Shown one piece after another: positions 3,444-42,091 of a stretch of DNA of 64,000 bases. Source of the stretch: Escherichia phage VEc33. The translations under genes and the position numbers were made by a program. Position 1 is the first letter of the stretch. Every line of letters begins with the position of its first letter. The notes beneath the pieces were generated by a model. The model had not been told where the DNA came from. It saw only the letters and a program-made list of their open reading frames with translations, and searched no databases. The stretch is from the sequence record NC_048818.1; one strand, written 5' to 3'.

Positions 3444-3641
3444 TTAATTTAAAGGCACTAGGCTAGAACTAACACCACAAGCAACGGCAGCGATAAAACA
3501 AAGCAGACCTAAACGTTTTGCTAATTTAGATTTACGTTTAAAATAATATGAATCTAAATCATTTTGAAAATAAGCGAATAATAGGGAGGCCGCCATAATA
3601 AATAAGCCTAGAATTAAAGATTCAGTAGGGAAGAAAACCAT
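3444..3641 (-). CDS. small hydrophobic membrane protein (65 aa)
   Basis: Two hydrophobic segments; intact ORF between terminator-like hairpins. Confidence 0.35.
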   Translation of the reverse strand: MVFFPTESLILGLFIMAASLLFAYFQNDLDSYYFKRKSKLAKRLGLLCFIAAVACGVSSSLVPLN

Positions 3642-12887: not shown

Positions 12888-13165
12888 ATTAACATCCAGC
12901 TTTTATCGTATATTTGGGCATGTTCTACTAATTCGTTTATTGATGTAGAATTATCGTAGATACCCTCTAGTAAACGTTTTCTGTCAAATTTATCAACCAA
13001 ATACTCTGTGCCATTTATCACTACCCTATACAGCTCTGGAACTAAGGGGTGTTTGTTTGGTATTGGACGACTACCTAAGTCTATTTCGTTTTTACCCCAT
13101 TCTGTGTTAAATAGTTTGTTACTAAGTGCTGCTAGTGGGTTTGACCATACAATATAGCTACTCAC
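12875..13165 (-). CDS. hypothetical protein (96 aa)
   Basis: ORF with overlapping start/stop. Confidence 0.45.
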   Translation of the reverse strand: MSSYIVWSNPLAALSNKLFNTEWGKNEIDLGSRPIPNKHPLVPELYRVVINGTEYLVDKFDRKRLLEGIYDNSTSINELVEHAQIYDKSWMLIWKS

Positions 13166-30548: not shown

Positions 30549-30749
30549 TTACTCTACAGGAACCGTAGCTATTGGTTCTGGTTCTTCTAGACGTTTGCCT
30601 TCATGATCTACACGAATAACTCCGCATCCCTCGCAAAGCACAACAGCACCGTAACCTTCTTTAACTTCGGCTTCTGTAATCAAACCAGAAAGATCACCAG
30701 TATCTTTACCCCACATATCAATGGAGCATTGTTTGCAGAAATCAGCCAT
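30549..30749 (-). CDS. Cys-rich zinc-ribbon-like small protein (66 aa)
   Basis: CKQC ... CEGC pairs. Confidence 0.4.
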   Translation of the reverse strand: MADFCKQCSIDMWGKDTGDLSGLITEAEVKEGYGAVVLCEGCGVIRVDHEGKRLEEPEPIATVPVE

Positions 30750-30774
30750 ATTTTATTTCCTATTTAAGTTAATT

Positions 30775-30851
30775 TGGGGTGGCTAGTGGAATTCGAATCC
30801 ACATAGGCCTGATTCACAAGCAGGATCATTAACCAATTATGATATAGCCAC
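30775..30851 (-). tRNA. tRNA-His (anticodon GTG)
   Basis: Anticodon loop TTGTGAA; discriminator C as expected for His; T-arm GTGGA-TTCGAAT-TCCAC. Confidence 0.6.
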
Positions 30852-31405
30852 AATTGAAAACTCGCAGGGTTAGCGAAACCTTCCTCAATTAGCATGTTCT
30901 AGAATACTAATCAAGTTATCTCCTATTGCATGCAGCTCAAGACGAGTACGAATTTTCAATTGTGGCGGCTCTCAGAAACTCTTCTATTCTAGCCTCAGAA
31001 GCTTACCCCCGAACGCATGTCGGGAAAGTCTTTCCAGGAGCATCAAATAGCACCGTTACACTTTGAGCCATTGATGTATCAAGGAATAGAAGGGCTTGAA
31101 CCTTCACGAGATAGACCATTTATCTCAACCGCTTTTAAGGTATATTTCTAGGAGTGGATGTTCCTAGTAAACCTATTCGGCAGTCCCGTCTACCAATTCC
31201 GGCATATTCCAAGAATTTTTTATAAACCAGCAGAAGCCTCATTTAAAGCATCAATAATAGCTTCACGCTGGGTCATTCCATACCCGGTGGAGTCTAGGTG
31301 AGGCAAATAGGCTTCCCATCCATTATCTGTTTCATGAAGGCATGCTTTAAATTTTTTACCGTCCTTCATTGTTACAGTAACTGTTTTGCTCATAAGGATT
31401 CCTTA

Positions 31406-31495
31406 TATTTAATTGGAGGAAGGTAATGGAGTCGAACCATCACCGTATCACTACAGCGGGCTAGTTTTCAAGACTAGTTGCGTACCACTACGCCC
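31406..31495 (-). tRNA. tRNA-Ser (anticodon TGA), class II
   Basis: 90 nt with long variable arm; anticodon stem CTAGT/ACTAG, loop CTTGAAA. Confidence 0.6.
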
Positions 31496-31502
31496 TACCT
31501 TC

Positions 31503-31593
31503 CATTTGTTTGGCGGAAGAGGAGAGATTTGAACTCTCAAGCCGTTTTACCAGTCAGCCACTTTCCAAGCGGTTTTCGTCGCCAATTCGATTT
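31503..31593 (-). tRNA. tRNA-Ser (anticodon GGA), class II, tentative
   Basis: 91 nt; ...CTCTTCC-G-CCA 3' end; anticodon loop TTGGAAA resembles E. coli Ser(GGA). Confidence 0.45.
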
Positions 31594-31705
31594 GCTCTTC
31601 CAATAATAAGATGATGCCTCTATCACACCAGGCAGTTACGCCTCGCTGGGATTCGAACCCATTAAAACAGCTCAACCGAGATAGTAGGTTTAATTTACTC
31701 TGACC

Positions 31706-31782
31706 ATCAAATTTGGTGCGTGACAAGGGATTCGAACCCTCAAAACCCGACTTCTAAGGACGGTATGTATGCCAATTCCATC
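31706..31782 (-). tRNA. tRNA with anticodon TAG (Leu-type anticodon on a short class-I body)
   Basis: Acceptor GCGTGAT/GTCACGC, discriminator A, T-arm GAGGG-TTCGAAT-CCCTT; anticodon loop CTTAGAA; one U-U in the anticodon stem. Confidence 0.45.
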
Positions 31783-31787
31783 AATCA

Positions 31788-31866
31788 CGCATATTTGGTG
31801 GAGAATAACGGAATCGAACCGTTCTGATGTCCTCGGTGCAAGCGAGGTGTCCACTCCATGCAGACC
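31788..31866 (-). tRNA. tRNA-Ala (anticodon TGC)
   Basis: Anticodon stem CCTCG/CGAGG, loop CTTGCAC; G3-U70 wobble in acceptor; discriminator A. Confidence 0.6.
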
Positions 31867-32247
31867 CATTCCCCAAATTCTTTAGTTTACTAAGGCTATT
31901 AGCTCGGCGTAACTACAGCACCTTCGCTTCGAGCGGAAGGAACTGCGTCATCTCGCAAACCCAATACACTACTCAGTTGCCGCTGAATCTAGTGGACTAA
32001 TCTAGAACCTCTCCCAAATCGTAGGGATCGTGCTTTTTGGCAGCCAGTCCTAGGTCGAGCTAATACCTTAGTGAACTAAGATGAGGATTTCTCCTCATCA
32101 ATTTATATAAATATTATAACAAGAAATTAAGCATTAAGCAACTGCGTTTTTGAAATTTCTTGGACTTGGTACTCGGTGATAGAATCTAACTATCGCTACC
32201 GCCGTGTAAAGACGGGGTTCTCTCATTAAACTAACCGAGCAAAAATT

Positions 32248-32325
32248 TGGTGGATTGCCTGGGATTCGAACCCAGAACTGACGGATTAAAGGTCCGCTAC
32301 TCTTATCCAGTTGAGCTAGCAATCC
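32248..32325 (-). tRNA. tRNA-Lys (anticodon TTT)
   Basis: Anticodon loop CCTTTAA; D stem GCTC/GAGT; discriminator A. Confidence 0.6.
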
Positions 32326-33125: not shown

Positions 33126-33498
33126 AATATTATCTTTTTAACCACAGTAAAGATAAGCCTAGCATAGTGAATCCAGTACCTAATCCAATACATTTCTCTA
33201 TAAGAGTAAATGTATCTATGTTGAATGCTGTTATAACAATTGGGATACACCACAATAGCATAAAGACTTCGGCTATCTTATACTTCATTTAGCTTTCCTT
33301 CTCTTCACTTTATAAGATATATTATACAGAGAATTAAGTAAAATAGCAAATGAATTTTTAATAAATTTACTTATTGTGTAGGCCACCTGGAGGCTACCAA
33401 CCCCACGGCTGACAAAGAAGTTTGCGAGACCTCTCTTAAAAGCCAGAATAGACCCGCCGGTCTATCGGAACCTACATAATAAGTAAACTTTATAGTGT

Positions 33499-33619
33499 CA
33501 TTCTAGGCAGGATTCGAACCTGCTATCACTTGTGCGGACTTACGAGAACCATTCTTTCACTCGAATCGAACGAGCTTCTGCCCTAGCCAAGCTGGTTTCC
33601 CCATCAACCACGCTAGAAT
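33499..33619 (-). ncRNA. tRNA-like element with an approximately 45-nt insertion (unresolved)
   Basis: Acceptor-like ATTCTAG/CTAGAAT flanking a perfect T-arm GCAGG-TTCGAAT-CCTGC and D-arm TGGT...ACCA, but about 121 nt long with a second T-arm-like hairpin. Confidence 0.25.
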
Positions 33620-33741
33620 GTTAGATTGTTTTCAGTGCAAGAGTCCGAGTCTTGGACACGACCGCTTCGCAAGTACATAGGCAGCTTATCATGAGTCAGC
33701 ACTTCCGAATTGCTAGCTCCGTGTTCTGCACTGAAATTTTA

Positions 33742-34089
33742 TTAGTTTAACCGTAAAGTATTATCTACTTCACCATTAATTGTTCGGCATTCCTCTGGGA
33801 ATGCCGGGGTGGCTTTGTATTCCCACCACTCAGCACCATCATATTCCCCACGTTCTAGCCAAGTTCCATCGGCAAACCATACATTACCATAAAGTAATTG
33901 TCCACCGTATCCAGAATCATATTCAAAGTCTAGGTTATTAAGAAAATCCTCAATATCTTCTTCTGTATAACCTAAAGGTAATACCCAAACTTTTTTATCC
34001 CCATAATACCCAAATTCTATTTTAATACACTTAACTTCAGAATTAGTATTTTTTAAGGCAAGTAACAACTCTTCTTTGGCATTACGCAT
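33742..34089 (-). CDS. hypothetical protein (115 aa)
   Basis: ORF; Trp/Tyr/Gly-rich. Confidence 0.45.
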   Translation of the reverse strand: MRNAKEELLLALKNTNSEVKCIKIEFGYYGDKKVWVLPLGYTEEDIEDFLNNLDFEYDSGYGGQLLYGNVWFADGTWLERGEYDGAEWWEYKATPAFPEECRTINGEVDNTLRLN

Positions 34090-35235: not shown

Positions 35236-35514
35236 CTACATTTTTAAGAATTTGATGCCTTTCTTTTTCTTCTTATATTTCCACGTTAATGGATTCTGCC
35301 GATTGTGAACGCTTGAGATCTTCGTCTCGTCAAAGTTCTTCAATATCATGTAATCACAAGATAATTGTTCTAATGGAATGTGATCACCGTCAAAAGCATA
35401 TACATAAGGTTGTTGACTAGCACGATAATGATAGACTTTGTTAATTCTACGTTTTAGCGACTTATCAGCGCAGTAAATAAAGAAGTTTTCAGGATGCATC
35501 AGCATCTCCTTCAA
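35236..35514 (-). CDS. hypothetical protein (92 aa)
   Basis: ORF. Confidence 0.4.
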   Translation of the reverse strand: MKEMLMHPENFFIYCADKSLKRRINKVYHYRASQQPYVYAFDGDHIPLEQLSCDYMILKNFDETKISSVHNRQNPLTWKYKKKKKGIKFLKM

Positions 35515-35516
35515 TT

Positions 35517-35591
35517 TGGTGCACCCTGTTCGTATCGAACGAACCTCTCAAGCTCTTCAGGCAAGCGCTAATCCATCTCAGCTAAAGGTGC
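35517..35591 (-). tRNA. tRNA-Phe (anticodon GAA), tentative
   Basis: T-arm GTTCG-TTCGATA-CGAAC; anticodon loop CTGAAGA; weak anticodon stem. Confidence 0.45.
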
Positions 35592-35597
35592 AAATTT

Positions 35598-35674
35598 TGG
35601 CAAACCTACTAGGACTCGAACCTAGACCGTACGGTTTTAGAGACCGACATGCTGTCCAGTAACACTCTAGGAAT
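35598..35674 (-). tRNA. Trp-like tRNA with anticodon CTA (reads UAG), candidate amber suppressor
   Basis: T-arm CTAGG-TTCGAGT-CCTAG and discriminator G as in E. coli tRNA-Trp; anticodon arm TCGGT-CTCTAAA-ACCGT differs from the Trp loop CTCCAAA by one base; acceptor stem has two U-U mismatches. Confidence 0.4.
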
Positions 35675-35682
35675 GCAGAAAT

Positions 35683-35759
35683 TGGCGTCCTGTGCGGGGA
35701 TCGAACCCGCAAATCCTACCTTGAAAGGGTAGTGACTTTACCAGTTTGTCTAACAGGAC
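35683..35759 (-). tRNA. tRNA-Glu (anticodon TTC)
   Basis: Acceptor GTCCTGT/ACAGGAC perfect; anticodon stem CTACC/GGTAG, loop CTTTCAA. Confidence 0.65.
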
Positions 35760-35766
35760 TTAAATT

Positions 35767-35857
35767 TGGTGTTGGATGATGGAGTCGAACCACCCGAGAC
35801 CCTTCCGAGTCGGCAGATTTACAGTCTGCTTCGCTACCTCTACGATACTAATCCAAC
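35767..35857 (-). tRNA. tRNA-Tyr (anticodon GTA), class II
   Basis: 91 nt; acceptor GTTGGAT/ATCCAAC; anticodon stem GCAGA/TCTGC, loop CTGTAAA. Confidence 0.6.
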
Positions 35858-35985
35858 ATATTTAAAAGTATTCAAATACTAGTTTAAACACTTTTAAATA
35901 TGTTTCCGAATTAGATAACTATTATATCAAGTTTTAAGGCACTGAGCAAGTCAAATTTTAAAGAACTTGCTCAGTGCTGTATTAG

Positions 35986-36261
35986 TTAGTCGAACTTAGG
36001 AGTGACAGTTAAGGAGAACGGAAGTTCGAAAACTTCTTCGCCCTCATTACTAACGGTAACTACACGACCTTTAAGTTCAGACATTAAAATATCAATATCA
36101 GCTTTTGCATCTGGAGCCATGCCAGCTTCAATACATTTAGCTTTAACTTCCGGTAAAAGCTCTACGTTATAGAGATAGAGCCACTCAATCTCACCTTCCC
36201 AGTCTTCCCAGGATTTGCAGATTGCACTTTCAATACCAGTTGCTACAACACGATTTTGCAT
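35986..36261 (-). CDS. hypothetical acidic protein (91 aa)
   Basis: ORF with promoter motif upstream. Confidence 0.45.
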   Translation of the reverse strand: MQNRVVATGIESAICKSWEDWEGEIEWLYLYNVELLPEVKAKCIEAGMAPDAKADIDILMSELKGRVVTVSNEGEEVFELPFSLTVTPKFD

Positions 36262-37025: not shown

Positions 37026-37103
37026 TGGTGGCTCCCCGAGGATTCGAACCTACGTACCTTCCGGTTATGAGCCGGGTGCTCATACCATATGAGCTTGAGA
37101 ACC
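37026..37103 (-). tRNA. tRNA-Met/fMet (anticodon CAT)
   Basis: Anticodon loop CTCATAA with a G-C-rich stem; third CAT tRNA in the cluster. Confidence 0.45.
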
Positions 37104-40722: not shown

Positions 40723-40797
40723 TGGCCGAGGTGACAGGATTCGAACCTGCATAAAGGAATTTAGAAGACTCCTGCCTATCCCTTAGACTACACCCCG
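40723..40797 (-). tRNA. tRNA-Arg (anticodon TCT)
   Basis: T-arm GCAGG-TTCGAAT-CCTGT; anticodon stem GGAGT/ATTCC, loop CTTCTAA. Confidence 0.55.
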
Positions 40798-41299
40798 TTT
40801 AAGTATTTTTAAGAACTCTCGTAAAAACTCTTAAAAATACAGACGATACCGGGAGAGTCATAAGTCTCACTCATTAAGTATTTCAAGACAAAATACGGTA
40901 ACGTCTATTATTTTCCAGTTTAAGTCAGGGTGACTTAGTGGTTATGTCCTGCGGTATATTGAGGACTCGGTTAGGCTTGGGGTCATGACTTCCCGCCTTT
41001 TGCTGCTACTCAACAGGAGTTATCGCGAATTACCTGTGCTATTGTGCACCATTAGTGACATCTCTCATGTCAGCATTTCCCACTTTGTGGATAGCTTGAA
41101 AAACTACTCCGATATGGAGAAAGAACTTCACTACCCTAGAATACCTTCTAAAGTTCTTCTTTAGCCTGGACATAGTTAAATCGTAATAAAACTATTCAGC
41201 AGACTGGTTGGTTAGTCTGGAACCAACTACCGCGTGGTTTAGGCAGTGCGCAACTAACCTCGGAAGCTTTTACGTTAAAAGCATCAGTTATCCAGTTCT

Positions 41300-41371
41300 T
41301 ACCGACCGTAGGATTCGAACCTACATCTTCCACCAGTTACGGCTTGATAATACCAATTATACTAGGACGGC
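41300..41371 (-). ncRNA. tRNA-like element (acceptor and T-arm present, anticodon arm not foldable)
   Basis: Perfect T-arm GTAGG-TTCGAAT-CCTAC and acceptor-like GCCGTCC/GGTCGGT; no CCA; sits in an 840-bp ORF-free region. Confidence 0.25.
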
Positions 41372-41647
41372 AGTGTTACTACATAAGTGATTTCCACACC
41401 CCACTATTTATAAATTAGAGAAGAGTTTAGGGGAGAGGTTTCAGACGCCTCATTTTACACGTTCTAGCCACTAACCGGGATTGCCGCCCCCCTGTGTACT
41501 AGTTTTACAACTAACCCACCGACTCTATTCAACGAATCTTAGTGCTCGACGCATCTTACATTAAGACAAGTTCAGCGTAATCGGCTCGCTGTTCCCTAAT
41601 TTATGAATATATTATACAGAATTTAAAGGCATTTAGCAAATAAATTT

Positions 41648-42091
41648 TTAATTAAATTCGCCAGCAATCTGAGCAGCAGTACCACCATCATAACGCCCAG
41701 AAAATTCTTCCTTAATCGCTTTCATCAGCATACCTTTTGTAATTCCAGGGTTTAGCTTAACTAATTCTGCAAAGTATTTACGAATCTCAGTATCAGATAA
41801 CTGAGGAGGCAGATACTCCTGCAACCACTTAGTTAGAATGTATTCATACTGAGCGGACTGCAAGCTATAACTATCAAGATCTTGACCATGAAGTTTAGCT
41901 TTCATCTGGTTAATGCTTTTTAGTTGAGCTTTGAGATAAGACACAAATTGTTCAGAAGTGATGAAATCTTTATCAATACGCTGAAGATCCCCGATTATGG
42001 TCTGATAGCTTTTAGCGACTTCTTTATCAGAACCATTAAACTTAGAATCCTGCAAAGCTCTACGCAAAACATCTAAAATATTCTCTTCCAT
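41648..42091 (-). CDS. GatB/YqeY-domain-like protein (147 aa)
   Basis: Overall similarity to YqeY-family helical proteins (recognised by eye). Confidence 0.45.
   Translation of the reverse strand: MEENILDVLRRALQDSKFNGSDKEVAKSYQTIIGDLQRIDKDFITSEQFVSYLKAQLKSINQMKAKLHGQDLDSYSLQSAQYEYILTKWLQEYLPPQLSDTEIRKYFAELVKLNPGITKGMLMKAIKEEFSGRYDGGTAAQIAGEFN

What the first reader, a model, noticed from the sequence alone, without database searches (positions are those of the whole stretch)
40798..41647. 850-bp ORF-free region with a truncated tRNA-like element
This is the longest coding gap in the window. It contains a perfect T-arm and acceptor-like pairing (41300-41371) with no foldable anticodon arm and no CCA, plus several hairpins and inverted repeats (for example CAGACTGGTTGGTTAGTCTG at about 41200). 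It could be a decayed tRNA, a structured RNA gene or a replication-origin-type element; the sequence alone does not distinguish these.
Basis: seen in the sequence. Interest (0 to 1): 0.45.

Follow-up and report, generated by a model that had tools for sequence, protein, structure and literature searches.

The report
T5-type RNAX noncoding RNA gene
The gap is the counterpart of phage T5's annotated but uncharacterised "RNAX" gene: a roughly 800-base, highly folded noncoding RNA that carries a built-in tRNA look-alike which cannot decode, and which is conserved across T5-like phages.

Summary
The window is a T5-like phage (Tequintavirus). The gap at 40798-41647 lies between a YqeY-like gene and tRNA-Arg, all on the minus strand. 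It is syntenic and homologous with T5 misc_RNA rnaX, annotated as "stable RNA with unknown functions".

- **Transcription.** A near-consensus sigma-70 promoter (41639-41611) opens the unit. No minus-strand terminator-like site was found before tRNA-Arg.
- **tRNA-like element (41371-41300).** It passes the Rfam tRNA threshold. Acceptor, D and T arms are kept by compensatory changes. The anticodon arm is a variable mini-hairpin, and there is no CCA, unlike all 23 ARAGORN-called tRNAs here.
- **Rest of the gap.** It is also structured: a 5' closing helix, a 174-nt core with 25 of 43 pairs covarying, and a 17-bp 3' hairpin.
- **Excluded.** There is no coding periodicity, no origin signature, and no Rfam family other than tRNA.
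- **Distribution.** Homologues occur across enterobacterial Demerecviridae.

It is therefore a structured RNA gene, not a decayed tRNA or a replication origin. Function is unknown. My best guess is a multi-domain stable RNA whose tRNA-like top half serves as an RNase P/tRNA-machinery handle or mimic. A GOLLD/ROOL-like role is not excluded.

The parts
41611..41639 (-). Sigma-70 promoter TTGCTA-N17-TATAAT, the counterpart of T5 promoter P16-17. The transcription start is inferred near 41604.
   Evidence: The consensus scan gives 10 of 12 matches. T5 and S114 annotate the syntenic site as the P16-17 promoter. The sequence is conserved in all aligned relatives.
41589..41609 (-). P1 helix, 5' strand: the 5' leader UAUUCAUAAAUUAGGGAACAG.
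   Evidence: It forms inverted repeat I1 with 41405-41425 (21 nt, 86% complementary). It is also present in the minimum-free-energy fold. Compensatory changes occur in AKFV33, KEY and KKP3711.
41426..41588 (-). Module A, the 5' domain enclosed by P1. It includes the hairpin CAGCG-AGCCGAUUA-CGCUG (41591-41573) and the conserved UGAAUAGAGUCGGUGGGUU and AAACUCUUCUC motifs.
   Evidence: It is absent from T5 and AKFV33 as a 162-163-nt deletion. It is present in Epseptimavirus, Sugarlandvirus, My1, KEY and Proteus/Providencia phages, with a covarying hairpin such as CAGCA..UGCUG in My1.
41405..41425 (-). P1 helix, 3' strand: CUCUUCUCUAAUUUAUAAAUA.
41372..41404 (-). Conserved 5' flank of core B: GUGGGGUGUGGAA-N14-AACACU.
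   Evidence: It is nearly invariant, with fixed 14-nt spacing, from Tequintavirus to My1 and PSTCR5. The core-B nhmmer profile hits all subfamilies tested.
41300..41371 (-). tRNA-like domain. It has acceptor, D and T arms. A 3-bp stem with a 6-nt loop stands in place of the anticodon arm. It has discriminator A and no CCA.
   Evidence: Rfam tRNA 35.5 bits. On alignment A1, 88% of cells are paired against 33-46% in slid controls, and 12 pairs carry double changes. The minimum-free-energy fold is a cloverleaf. Public records give inconsistent isotype calls: OTHER, Ser, Pro, Sec, Leu, Undet.
41266..41299 (-). Conserved linker AAGAACUGGAUAACUGAU followed by hairpin H2, GCUUUUAACGUAAAAGC (41282-41266).
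   Evidence: The linker is nearly invariant. H2 covaries at pairs 114:128 and 117:125 (UA, CG, AU).
41087..41265 (-).
   Evidence: It is replaced by unrelated sequence in the Epseptimavirus S114 and SH9 types. The hairpin folds with z = -3.1.
40913..41086 (-). Core D, a 174-nt conserved multi-hairpin domain with conserved loops GUGGGAAA, CUAAUGG, CGCGAUAAC, AUAACCAC, AGUCACCCUGACU and AAACUGGAA.
   Evidence: Covariance model R1 scores 201.6 bits here. On A4 (18 distinct sequences), 96% of cells are paired against 30-53% when slid, and 25 of 43 pairs carry compensatory changes. Per-segment folds agree, as does RNAalifold.
40973..40998 (-). Hairpin within core D that presents the loop AAGUCAUGA, which contains the self-complementary hexamer UCAUGA.
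   Evidence: The loop motif is invariant in alignment A2. The stem has 6 of 8 pairs covarying (helix 6). The motif is also present in IME260, KEY and PM135, and as AGUCAUG in My1. It appears as palindrome I7.
40841..40906 (-). 3' domain closed by AGACGUUACCG / CGGUAUCGUCU.
   Evidence: The minimum-free-energy fold shows it. Epseptimaviruses have different sequence with an analogous closing stem, GACGG..CCGUC.
40803..40840 (-). Terminal 17-bp AU-rich hairpin GUAUUUUUAAGAGUUUU-UACG-AGAGUUCUUAAAAAUAC. It marks the 3' boundary of the RNAX unit.
   Evidence: Perfect 12-nt arms (I6). The fold has z = -3.4. Stem and loop sequence are conserved in My1 and IME260, where ORFs rather than tRNA-Arg follow it.
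40723..40797 (-). tRNA-Arg(UCU) with encoded CCA, 5 nt downstream of the RNAX hairpin, apparently in the same transcription unit.
   Evidence: ARAGORN, Rfam 49.3 bits, CCA present. The scan found no minus-strand terminator-like site between the promoter and the tRNA.

Best explanation
**What is shown.** The gap is a noncoding RNA gene, the orthologue of bacteriophage T5 rnaX (T5s08, 'stable RNA with unknown functions').
- It has a strong early sigma-70 promoter and is read on the minus strand. No terminator-like site was found before tRNA-Arg.
- The roughly 800-nt RNA folds into modules: (i) a 5' helix P1 that closes an optional domain A; (ii) core B, in which a helix carries a tRNA-like domain; (iii) a variable region; (iv) a conserved multi-hairpin core D; (v) a 3' domain ending in a 17-bp hairpin.
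- The tRNA-like domain keeps the parts that make the tRNA 'top half' and elbow: the acceptor and T arms, the D arm, G18 G19 and the T loop.
- It lacks a 7-nt anticodon loop and lacks an encoded CCA. On sequence grounds it looks like a tRNA mimic rather than a decoder.

**What is inferred (about 35% likely).**
- The tRNA-like top half is a handle for host tRNA machinery. RNase P would cut at 41371/41372 and again at the 5' end of tRNA-Arg.
- A 3' tRNA-processing nuclease or RNase E would cut after A41300.
- These cuts would punctuate the primary transcript into stable, structured pieces.
- The stable product would then act through its conserved loops as a scaffold or sponge for a protein or RNA partner that is not yet known.
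For: **Identity**
- Synteny and homology with T5 rnaX.
- 529 phage records match the region, nearly all T5-like.

**Transcription unit**
- Promoter with 10 of 12 matches, and no minus-strand terminator-like site.
- T5 and S114 annotate the promoter at the same place.

**Structure**
- Cloverleaf plus H2: 88% of cells paired, 12 double-change pairs, all controls lower.
- Core D: 96% paired, 25 of 43 pairs compensatory.
- P1: compensatory changes in AKFV33, KEY and KKP3711.
- Many kept pairs are G-U, which is consistent with RNA pairing on the minus strand.

**Noncoding**
- No 3-periodicity in substitutions, and indels are mostly not multiples of 3.
- No conserved ORF; UTK9 has no sense ORF of 40 aa or more.

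**Selection**
- Core D is 88% identical and core B 84% identical to S114, against 89.6% for yqeY and 84% for the SPFH gene.
- In KKP3711 and My1, core B is easier to detect at the nucleotide level than yqeY.

**Top half is the selected part**
- The anticodon arm varies widely: 3 bp + 6 nt; 4 bp + 6 nt; 6 bp + 6 nt; 5 bp + 5 nt; or a long irregular hairpin.
- In SH9, L021 and PSTCR5 the domain shrinks to an acceptor-like stem plus one hairpin.
- Reading that form as an RNase P-type 'minihelix' is my own inference from established knowledge of RNase P substrates.
Against: - No expression or end-mapping data were available. 'Stable RNA' rests only on the T5 GenBank annotation, and no paper on RNAX was found.
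- RNase P cleavage is untested. E. coli RNase P favours substrates with CCA, which is missing here.
- The flanks of the tRNA-like domain (AACACU and AAGAA..GAUAACU) are as conserved as the domain itself. In PM135 the whole domain is replaced by a plain hairpin. The domain may therefore be a structural decoration rather than a processing site.
- The minimum-free-energy z-score of the whole RNA is only -1.66.
- The A4 alignment was fitted to the model, so its counts lean towards the structure.
- Some helices remain ambiguous, namely Hd and the choice between GUGG/CCAC and a local pairing.
Confidence: 0.6

Rival explanations
1. Anti-defence decoy. The non-decoding tRNA-like domain, displayed on a stable scaffold, would soak up or mis-direct host tRNA-targeting immune nucleases or tRNA-sensing effectors during T5-type infection.
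For: - E. coli defences active on T5-like phages cut tRNAs. PARIS is countered by a T5 tRNA (PMC11464382, found).
- Retron Eco2 nicks tRNA acceptor stems (PMC12916289).
- Loss of the tRNA-rich region sensitises T5 and SP15 to retrons (PMC11555353).
- The element keeps the acceptor, T and D features such enzymes could recognise, while being freed from decoding.
- The anticodon-arm replacement evolves fast. This could fit an arms race, but that is my reading and was not tested.
Against: - There is no experimental link to RNAX.
- PARIS acts on the anticodon stem, and the equivalent arm here is non-canonical and variable.
- Some lineages have lost the tRNA-like domain but keep the rest of RNAX, so the decoy cannot be the core function.
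- At about 41 kb RNAX probably lies outside the tRNA-rich deletion, but that deletion's coordinates were not checked.
Confidence: 0.13
2. A large 'ornate' self-assembling phage RNA, functionally analogous to GOLLD or ROOL. RNAX would oligomerise through the invariant self-complementary UCAUGA loop and other loops, and would display or enclose its covalently linked tRNA-like domain.
For: - GOLLD and ROOL are 600-800+ nt phage RNAs near tRNA islands.
- GOLLD has a variable 5' region, a conserved 3' region, and sometimes tRNAs in its linker (PMC12286853).
- RNAX has the same gross layout: variable 5' modules, an embedded tRNA-like domain and a conserved 3' core.
- The palindromic loop is conserved in nearly all lineages examined, on a covarying stem.
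Against: - There is no Rfam hit to GOLLD, ROOL or any large RNA, even at E of 10 or less on an 831-nt query.
- The resemblance is architectural only.
- A 6-nt palindrome can be conserved for other reasons. My1 keeps only CAUG, and I did not see the motif in PSTCR5.
- No oligomerisation data exist.
Confidence: 0.1
3. RNAX is only a long structured 5' leader whose job is correct expression and processing of the downstream tRNA-Arg.
For: - It lies directly upstream of tRNA-Arg, 5 nt away, in the same transcription unit.
- No terminator-like site was found in between.
Against: - In L021, L023, 26175I, KKP3711 and YZUL1 a 169-aa-type ORF separates the RNAX 3' hairpin from tRNA-Arg. In My1 and IME260 other ORFs do so. 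RNAX stays conserved in all of them.
- In one search, several tRNAs sit only a few bases from their neighbour, so they manage without such a leader.
- About 800 nt of covarying structure is far more than a leader needs.
Confidence: 0.07
4. RNAX is the RNA part of a ribonucleoprotein with the product of the adjacent YqeY/GatB-tail-like gene (41648-42091). From my own recall, not checked here, the GatB tail domain contacts the tRNA D loop and elbow.
For: - The YqeY-like gene sits immediately upstream of the RNAX promoter in Tequintavirus and Epseptimavirus.
- In My1 and PSTCR5 one small ORF lies between them.
- The D/T elbow of the tRNA-like domain is conserved.
Against: - The Pfam YqeY hit is just below threshold (26.3 against 27 bits) and covers only the C-terminal half.
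- Sugarlandviruses have RNAX with the tRNA-like domain, but no YqeY gene next to it.
- SH9 and L021 have YqeY but a reduced domain.
Confidence: 0.06
5. A decayed tRNA pseudogene within a neutrally evolving transcribed spacer; or a DNA-level element such as a replication origin; or unannotated small protein genes.
For: - ARAGORN does not call the element, and there is no CCA.
- Mechanical ORFs of 44-60 aa exist, and some records annotate them as hypothetical proteins.
- One DnaA-box-like CTATCCACA lies near 41085.
Against: - Compensatory changes occur throughout.
- Conservation equals that of neighbouring genes.
- There is no codon periodicity, and 1-nt indels are common.
- The ORFs are not conserved.
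- There is no skew inflection and there are no iterons.
- The DnaA-like box is not conserved in T5.
Confidence: 0.04

Closest known systems
Bacteriophage T5 rnaX (T5s08, misc_RNA 'RNAX', NC_005859 40848-41566)
   Same: - Same position between the YqeY-like gene (T5.081) with promoter P16-17 and tRNA-Arg.
- 92-98% nucleotide identity over the tRNA-like domain, core B, core D and the 3' hairpin.
   Different: - The window copy has the 163-nt module A that T5 lacks.
- The window copy lacks T5's 87-nt insertion flanked by a repeat.
- T5's acceptor position 5 is an A-U pair rather than U-U.
- T5's annotation gives no structure or function and does not mark the tRNA-like domain.
GOLLD and ROOL RNAs (large ornate phage/prophage RNAs; Rfam families; PMC12286853)
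   Same: - Phage-encoded, more than 600 nt, and located in or next to a tRNA island.
- Variable 5' part and conserved 3' part.
- A tRNA or tRNA-like element inside the RNA (GOLLD linker).
- Function unknown.
   Different: - No covariance-model match.
- Different host range: Enterobacterales lytic siphoviruses.
- Oligomerisation is untested.
- The embedded element is a non-decoding mimic rather than a tRNA.
tRNA-like processing modules in long RNAs (MALAT1/NEAT1 mascRNA; mitochondrial tRNA punctuation)
   Same: A tRNA-shaped element inside a long noncoding transcript that could recruit RNase P and a 3' tRNA-processing nuclease to define RNA ends. MALAT1 and NEAT1 use the tRNA-processing machinery (abstract of PMC12941219); the rest of this comparison is from my own knowledge.
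   Different: - Those systems are eukaryotic or organellar.
- Cleavage here is only inferred.
- The flanks here are themselves conserved and probably remain base-paired.
Canonical phage tRNA genes (the 23-24 in this window)
   Same: - Cloverleaf with acceptor, D and T arms.
- U8, G18 G19 and the GGUUCGAAUCC T loop.
- Passes the Rfam gathering score.
   Different: - No 5-bp stem with 7-nt anticodon loop.
- No encoded CCA.
- A conserved U-U mismatch in the acceptor stem.
- Embedded between conserved non-tRNA flanks.
tmRNA tRNA-like domain and bacterial Y-RNA-like YrlA
   Same: Partial tRNA mimicry (acceptor/T arm or T/D elbow) without an anticodon function. The descriptions of tmRNA and YrlA are from my own knowledge.
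   Different: - No tmRNA by ARAGORN or Rfam and no Y-RNA hit.
- tmRNA forms its tRNA-like domain from its two ends and carries a tag ORF.
- YrlA is open at the anticodon side, whereas this element is open at the acceptor side.

Membership tests
T5 rnaX-type stable RNA (Demerecviridae) | Synteny: between the YqeY-like gene with promoter P16-17 and tRNA-Arg, on the early-gene strand | tested here: met
T5 rnaX-type stable RNA (Demerecviridae) | Sequence homology to the annotated T5 rnaX | tested here: met
   blastn gives 91.7% identity over 516 nt and 98.1% over 213 nt to L002, the T5 locus. Model R1 scores 178 bits in T5 and 201.6 bits in the window.
T5 rnaX-type stable RNA (Demerecviridae) | Accumulates as a stable RNA in infected cells | not testable with these tools
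   Only the T5 record's note says so. No paper was found.
Canonical tRNA | Cloverleaf with acceptor, D and T arms and elbow nucleotides | tested here: met
   Rfam 35.5 bits against a threshold of 29; covariation; invariant GG and T loop.
Canonical tRNA | 5-bp anticodon stem with a 7-nt loop carrying an anticodon | tested here: not met
   A 3-bp stem with a 6-nt loop here. Loop and stem sizes differ between relatives. ARAGORN makes no call. Public records give inconsistent isotypes.
Canonical tRNA | 3' CCA, encoded in every ARAGORN-called tRNA of this genome | tested here: not met
   The sequence is GGUCGGU-A-AGAACU. All 23 ARAGORN tRNAs have CCA. Post-transcriptional CCA addition is not testable here.
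tmRNA | tRNA-like domain formed by the 5' and 3' ends, plus tag ORF and pseudoknots | tested here: not met
   ARAGORN finds no tmRNA. Rfam gives no hit at E of 10 or less.
GOLLD / ROOL | Match to the family covariance model | tested here: not met
   cmscan at E of 10 or less on 2.5-kb and 0.83-kb queries gives no hit.
GOLLD / ROOL | Large phage RNA next to a tRNA island, with a tRNA in the linker (GOLLD) | tested here: met
   About 800 nt, at the edge of a 24-tRNA island, with an embedded tRNA-like domain. Family description from PMC12286853.
GOLLD / ROOL | Homo-oligomeric nanocage | not testable with these tools
   Only a conserved self-complementary loop, UCAUGA, hints at self-association.
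Replication origin | GC-skew inflection, iterons or DnaA-box arrays, AT-rich unwinding element | tested here: not met
   The skew stays negative through 40-42 kb and changes sign at about 54 kb. Only short two- or three-copy repeats are present. GC content is 0.39, like the flanks.
Protein-coding gene(s) | Conserved ORF with third-position variation and in-frame indels | tested here: not met

The most novel reading that the evidence does not exclude
RNAX would be the T5-family representative of the large 'ornate' RNAs that phages keep in their tRNA islands, as with GOLLD and ROOL. It would be a self-associating RNA scaffold, held together by the near-invariant palindromic UCAUGA loop. It would present a non-decoding tRNA top half to host tRNA-directed machinery or to tRNA-targeting immune nucleases. 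It sits in a genetically tractable E. coli phage.
Probability: 0.12. Interest if true: 0.85.

Novelty: new member of a known kind. Interest (0 to 1): 0.5.

Why it matters
T5 is a classic, genetically tractable E. coli phage. Its relatives are widely used in phage therapy and in defence-system screens. Several points make this locus worth attention:

- An RNA of about 800 nt, conserved and covarying, has sat in the T5 annotation as "RNAX, unknown function". It has no Rfam family, and I found no paper on it.
- It contains a tRNA look-alike that selection has kept in shape while stripping it of decoding features.
- The functions of large phage RNAs next to tRNA islands (GOLLD, ROOL) are an open question. 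tRNA-targeting immunity against T5-like phages is a current topic.
- If RNAX acts in tRNA-machinery mimicry, anti-defence or RNA self-assembly, T5 would give a direct experimental handle on it.
- At the practical level, annotation pipelines mislabel the element as tRNA-OTHER, Sec, Ser, Pro or Leu, and call spurious "hypothetical proteins" inside it.

Tried and rejected
- **Rfam at permissive thresholds.** Two cmscan runs at E of 10 or less gave only the tRNA hit plus chance-level noise.
- **IMG/VR via the YqeY protein and a DNA motif.** These returned only close T5-like genomes, 20 and 25 loci.
- **The single metagenome scan.** A core-B motif returned 14 loci. Three were chance hits in GC-rich contigs, and only L071 was divergent. 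The motif was too strict and missed the bastian and SH9 types.
- **Literature.** Searches for RNAX, T5 stable RNAs and T5 transcriptomics found nothing on this RNA.
- **MAFFT alone for core D.** It misaligned the divergent L021, 26175I and KKP3711 types, so I replaced it with a covariance-model alignment.
- **Whole-RNA thermodynamic z-score.** At -1.66 it is uninformative. The same goes for the tRNA-like domain alone, at -0.67.
- **Long-range pairings.** I considered GGGGUGU with GCGCACUGCC, module A with the core-D flank (I2), and UUCCAG with CUGGAA. Covariation did not settle any of them.
- **Helices left open.** The exact register of helix Hd, and whether GUGG pairs with the distal CCAC or a local pyrimidine tract, remain unresolved.
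- **Model R1 on distant phages.** It did not reach My1 or PSTCR5. Homology of their 3' parts rests on shared motifs only.
Full report
**What the window is.** A 1.2-kb query around the finding matches 579 phage records. Nearly all are T5-like siphoviruses of Escherichia, Salmonella and Klebsiella, with up to 99.6% identity. The 850-nt gap alone matches 529 records. The window carries 23 ARAGORN tRNAs, all on the minus strand, and Rfam finds one more. The gap at 40798-41647 lies between tRNA-Arg(UCU) (40723-40797, minus) and a 147-aa ORF (41648-42091, minus). That ORF gives a sub-threshold Pfam YqeY hit.

**The observation.** Rfam's tRNA model scores 35.5 bits (gathering 29) at 41371-41300 on the minus strand, and leaves 18 nt at the anticodon position unaligned. 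ARAGORN does not call it.
- The T arm is perfect, and there is no CCA. All 23 ARAGORN-called tRNAs of the window encode CCA.
- The element is not truncated. It is a 72-nt cloverleaf with a D arm, and it has a 3-bp stem with a 6-nt loop where the anticodon arm should be.
- The hairpin at 41200-41219 exists.
- 'ORF-free' holds for ORFs of 61 aa or more. Other ORF-poor stretches in the window are longer.

**It is already annotated in T5.** In the T5 RefSeq record the syntenic gap is misc_RNA rnaX (T5s08), 'RNAX, stable RNA with unknown functions', at 40848-41566. Promoter 'P 16-17' precedes it and tRNA-Arg follows it. The window is 92-98% identical to T5 over most of this RNA.
- The window has the same promoter, TTGCTA-N17-TATAAT at 41639-41611. 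No intrinsic-terminator-like site lies on the minus strand before tRNA-Arg.
- I found no paper describing RNAX.
- Other public records leave the gap empty, call small 'hypothetical proteins' in it, or label the tRNA-like element inconsistently as tRNA-OTHER, Ser, Pro, Sec, Leu or Undet.

**Anatomy from comparison.** I collected the locus from these groups:
- Tequintavirus and Epseptimavirus;
- unclassified Markadamsvirinae (KKP_3711, KEY);
- Sugarlandvirus;
- Myunavirus (My1);
- Priunavirus (PSTCR5);
- Novosibvirus (PM135);
- metagenomes.

The region is modular.
1. **P1 helix.** The first roughly 20 nt of the transcript pair with 41425-41405 (inverted repeat I1; minimum-free-energy fold). Compensatory changes occur in AKFV33, KEY and KKP3711.
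2. **Module A.** P1 encloses a 163-nt module that T5 and AKFV33 have lost. My1, the Klebsiella phages and KEY retain it.
3. **Core B.** This is the most widely conserved part. An nhmmer profile finds it in every subfamily sampled. It consists of:
   - a nearly invariant strand, GGGGUGYSGAA-N14-AACACU;
   - a helix that carries the tRNA-like domain;
   - an invariant linker, AAGAA..GAUAACU;
   - a covarying hairpin, H2.
5. **Core D (41086-40913).** This is a set of hairpins that differ in sequence between lineages. They sit between invariant loops: GUGGGAAA, CUAAUGG, CGCGAUAAC, AAGUCAUGA, AUAACCAC, AGUCACCYUGACU and AAACUGGAA.
6. **3' end.** A 3' domain and a 17-bp AU-rich hairpin (40840-40803) finish the unit. 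The hairpin's stem and loop sequences are conserved even in My1 and IME260, where ORFs rather than tRNA-Arg follow it.

**Is the structure real?**
- *Cloverleaf plus H2, 20 distinct sequences (MAFFT alignment A1).* 88% of cells pair, against 33-46% when partners are slid. Twelve of 25 pairs carry changes on both sides, against 1-5 in the slid controls. No shuffle reached the observed covariation score.
- *Core D.* RNAalifold on eight sequences already showed 7 compensatory pairs. A covariance model built from them (R1) found and aligned the divergent L021, 26175I, KKP3711, YZUL1 and Klebsiella versions. On that alignment 96% of cells pair (slid 30-53%), and 25 of 43 pairs have compensatory changes (slid 4-9). 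This alignment is fitted to the model and so leans towards it. Independent per-segment folds give the same hairpins.
- *Strand.* Many retained pairs are G-U, which is consistent with RNA pairing on the minus strand.
- *Coding.* Substitutions show no 3-periodicity, 1-nt indels are common, and no ORF is conserved.
- *Selection.* Nucleotide conservation of cores B and D equals that of the flanking protein genes. In distant phages it exceeds that of yqeY.

**The tRNA-like domain.**
- *Conserved:* the acceptor helix, U8, the D stem (with compensatory changes such as GUA/UAU to GCA/UGC), G18 G19, and the T stem and T loop. The acceptor helix keeps a U-U mismatch at position 5 in most lineages.
- *Not conserved:* the anticodon arm. 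It has a 6-nt loop on 3, 4 or 6 bp in this window, bastian, and KEY/L071 respectively. It has 5 nt on 5 bp in My1. In the Klebsiella phages and L066 it is a long irregular hairpin whose tip covaries.
- *Reduced forms:* in SH9, L021 and PSTCR5 the domain shrinks to an acceptor-like stem plus one hairpin. In PM135 it is a plain hairpin. The flanks are kept in all of these.
- *Conclusion:* selection acts on the tRNA 'top half' and elbow, not on decoding. The domain is a lineage-variable decoration on a helix of a larger RNA.

**What it is not.**
- It matches no Rfam family other than tRNA, including tmRNA, GOLLD, ROOL and Y RNA.
- It is not an origin. GC skew is flat through the region and flips at about 54 kb. 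There are no iterons. A DnaA-box-like 9-mer is not conserved in T5.
- It is not merely a leader for tRNA-Arg. Mobile ORFs separate the two in many relatives while RNAX stays intact.

**How it most likely works.**
- *Shown:* a promoter-driven, conserved, multi-domain structured noncoding RNA with an embedded element that, on sequence grounds, is a non-decoding tRNA mimic.
- *Inferred:* the acceptor/T-arm stack is what RNase P, 3' tRNA-processing nucleases and the CCA-adding enzyme recognise (established knowledge of tRNA processing). The element is the one tRNA feature kept even in reduced versions. I therefore think it most likely serves as a handle for host tRNA machinery. It would punctuate and stabilise the transcript, with tRNA-Arg providing the second RNase P site. 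The conserved loops of cores B and D would bind the true partner. I put this mechanism at roughly one in three.

**Alternatives with some support.**
- *tRNA decoy.* It could act against tRNA-targeting defences known to act on T5-like phages (PMC11464382, PMC12916289, PMC11555353).
- *GOLLD/ROOL-like assembly.* It could self-assemble, as suggested by the shared gross architecture (PMC12286853) and by the near-invariant self-complementary UCAUGA loop on a covarying stem.
- *Ribonucleoprotein.* It could bind the neighbouring YqeY-like protein, though co-occurrence is imperfect.

**Novelty and verdict.** The locus is real and non-random, and it is explained as the orthologue of an RNA that T5's annotators already flagged. 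It is therefore a new member of a known but essentially uncharacterised kind. What is added here:
- the modular covariation-supported structure;
- the recognition that the tRNA-like domain is a selected, non-decoding mimic;
- the family's breadth across enterobacterial Demerecviridae;
- the absence of any Rfam family for it.

Interest is moderate. The function is open and testable in a model phage.

Noticed in passing
window 35598-35674 (-): A tRNA with a CUA anticodon. ARAGORN labels it 'tRNA-Pyl' and Rfam tRNA scores it 36.9 bits. It has encoded CCA. Its sequence looks unrelated, by eye, to the tRNA-Trp(CCA) that T5 has in the same slot. It looks like an amber-suppressor-type tRNA in a T5-like phage.
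   Followed up: partly
window 37029-37103 (-): Rfam finds a tRNA (40.3 bits) that ARAGORN did not call. It occupies the slot of T5 tRNA-Ile2(CAU). Phage Baret annotates a tRNA-Met there.
   Followed up: no
L018:3488-3970; L026:1244-1726; L021:4333-4842; L059:4200-4745: The RNAX locus is a landing site for mobile ORFs in relatives. An HNH_3 endonuclease replaces P1 and module A in L018; MET_P1-88 has an ORF of the same length and position, inferred to be the same. A 169-aa ORF with no Pfam family sits between the 3' hairpin and tRNA-Arg in L021; ORFs of the same size at the same place in S124, 26175I, KKP3711 and YZUL1 were not scanned. My1 has a T5orf172/MUG113 ORF there.
   Followed up: partly
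L002 (T5) about 12990-13080, aligned to window about 40920: T5's own RNAX carries an 87-nt insertion flanked by a direct repeat of AGTCACCTTGAC[T/A]TAAACTGGAA. It also lacks the 163-nt module A present in this window.
   Followed up: partly
L076 (Proteus phage PM135) 1195-1225 and 1255-1375; L060 (PSTCR5) 3520-3560: In Novosibvirus and Priunavirus the module order differs. In PM135 the AAGUCAUGAC-loop hairpin lies upstream of core B. In both phages a separate T-arm-like hairpin sits further upstream, while the core-B helix carries only a small hairpin.
   Followed up: no
window 40983-40990 (-): The 8-nt DNA palindrome GTCATGAC, seen in RNA as the self-complementary loop UCAUGA, is invariant in a hairpin loop across all aligned RNAX copies. 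It could act as a kissing-loop dimerisation site.
   Followed up: partly
window 30600-32300, 33300-33750, 35500-36000: Other ORF-poor stretches inside the tRNA island lie at roughly the coordinates where T5 annotates further 'stable RNAs with unknown functions' (RNAI, RNAIII, RNA1, RNA2H, RNAIV, RNA2, RNA3). Some of those are described as tRNA-like. Sequence homology with the window was not checked.
   Followed up: no
window about 54000: GC skew changes sign at about 54 kb. I take this to be the switch from minus-strand early genes to plus-strand genes, though strands there were not examined. There is no inflection near the finding.
   Followed up: no
L074:720-830 (metagenome contig OLXE01000031.1): A Tequintavirus-type RNAX copy in which the D arm of the tRNA-like domain is deleted (GCCGATCTAGTTTATCAAGCC...). 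This is either a natural variant or an assembly error.
   Followed up: no
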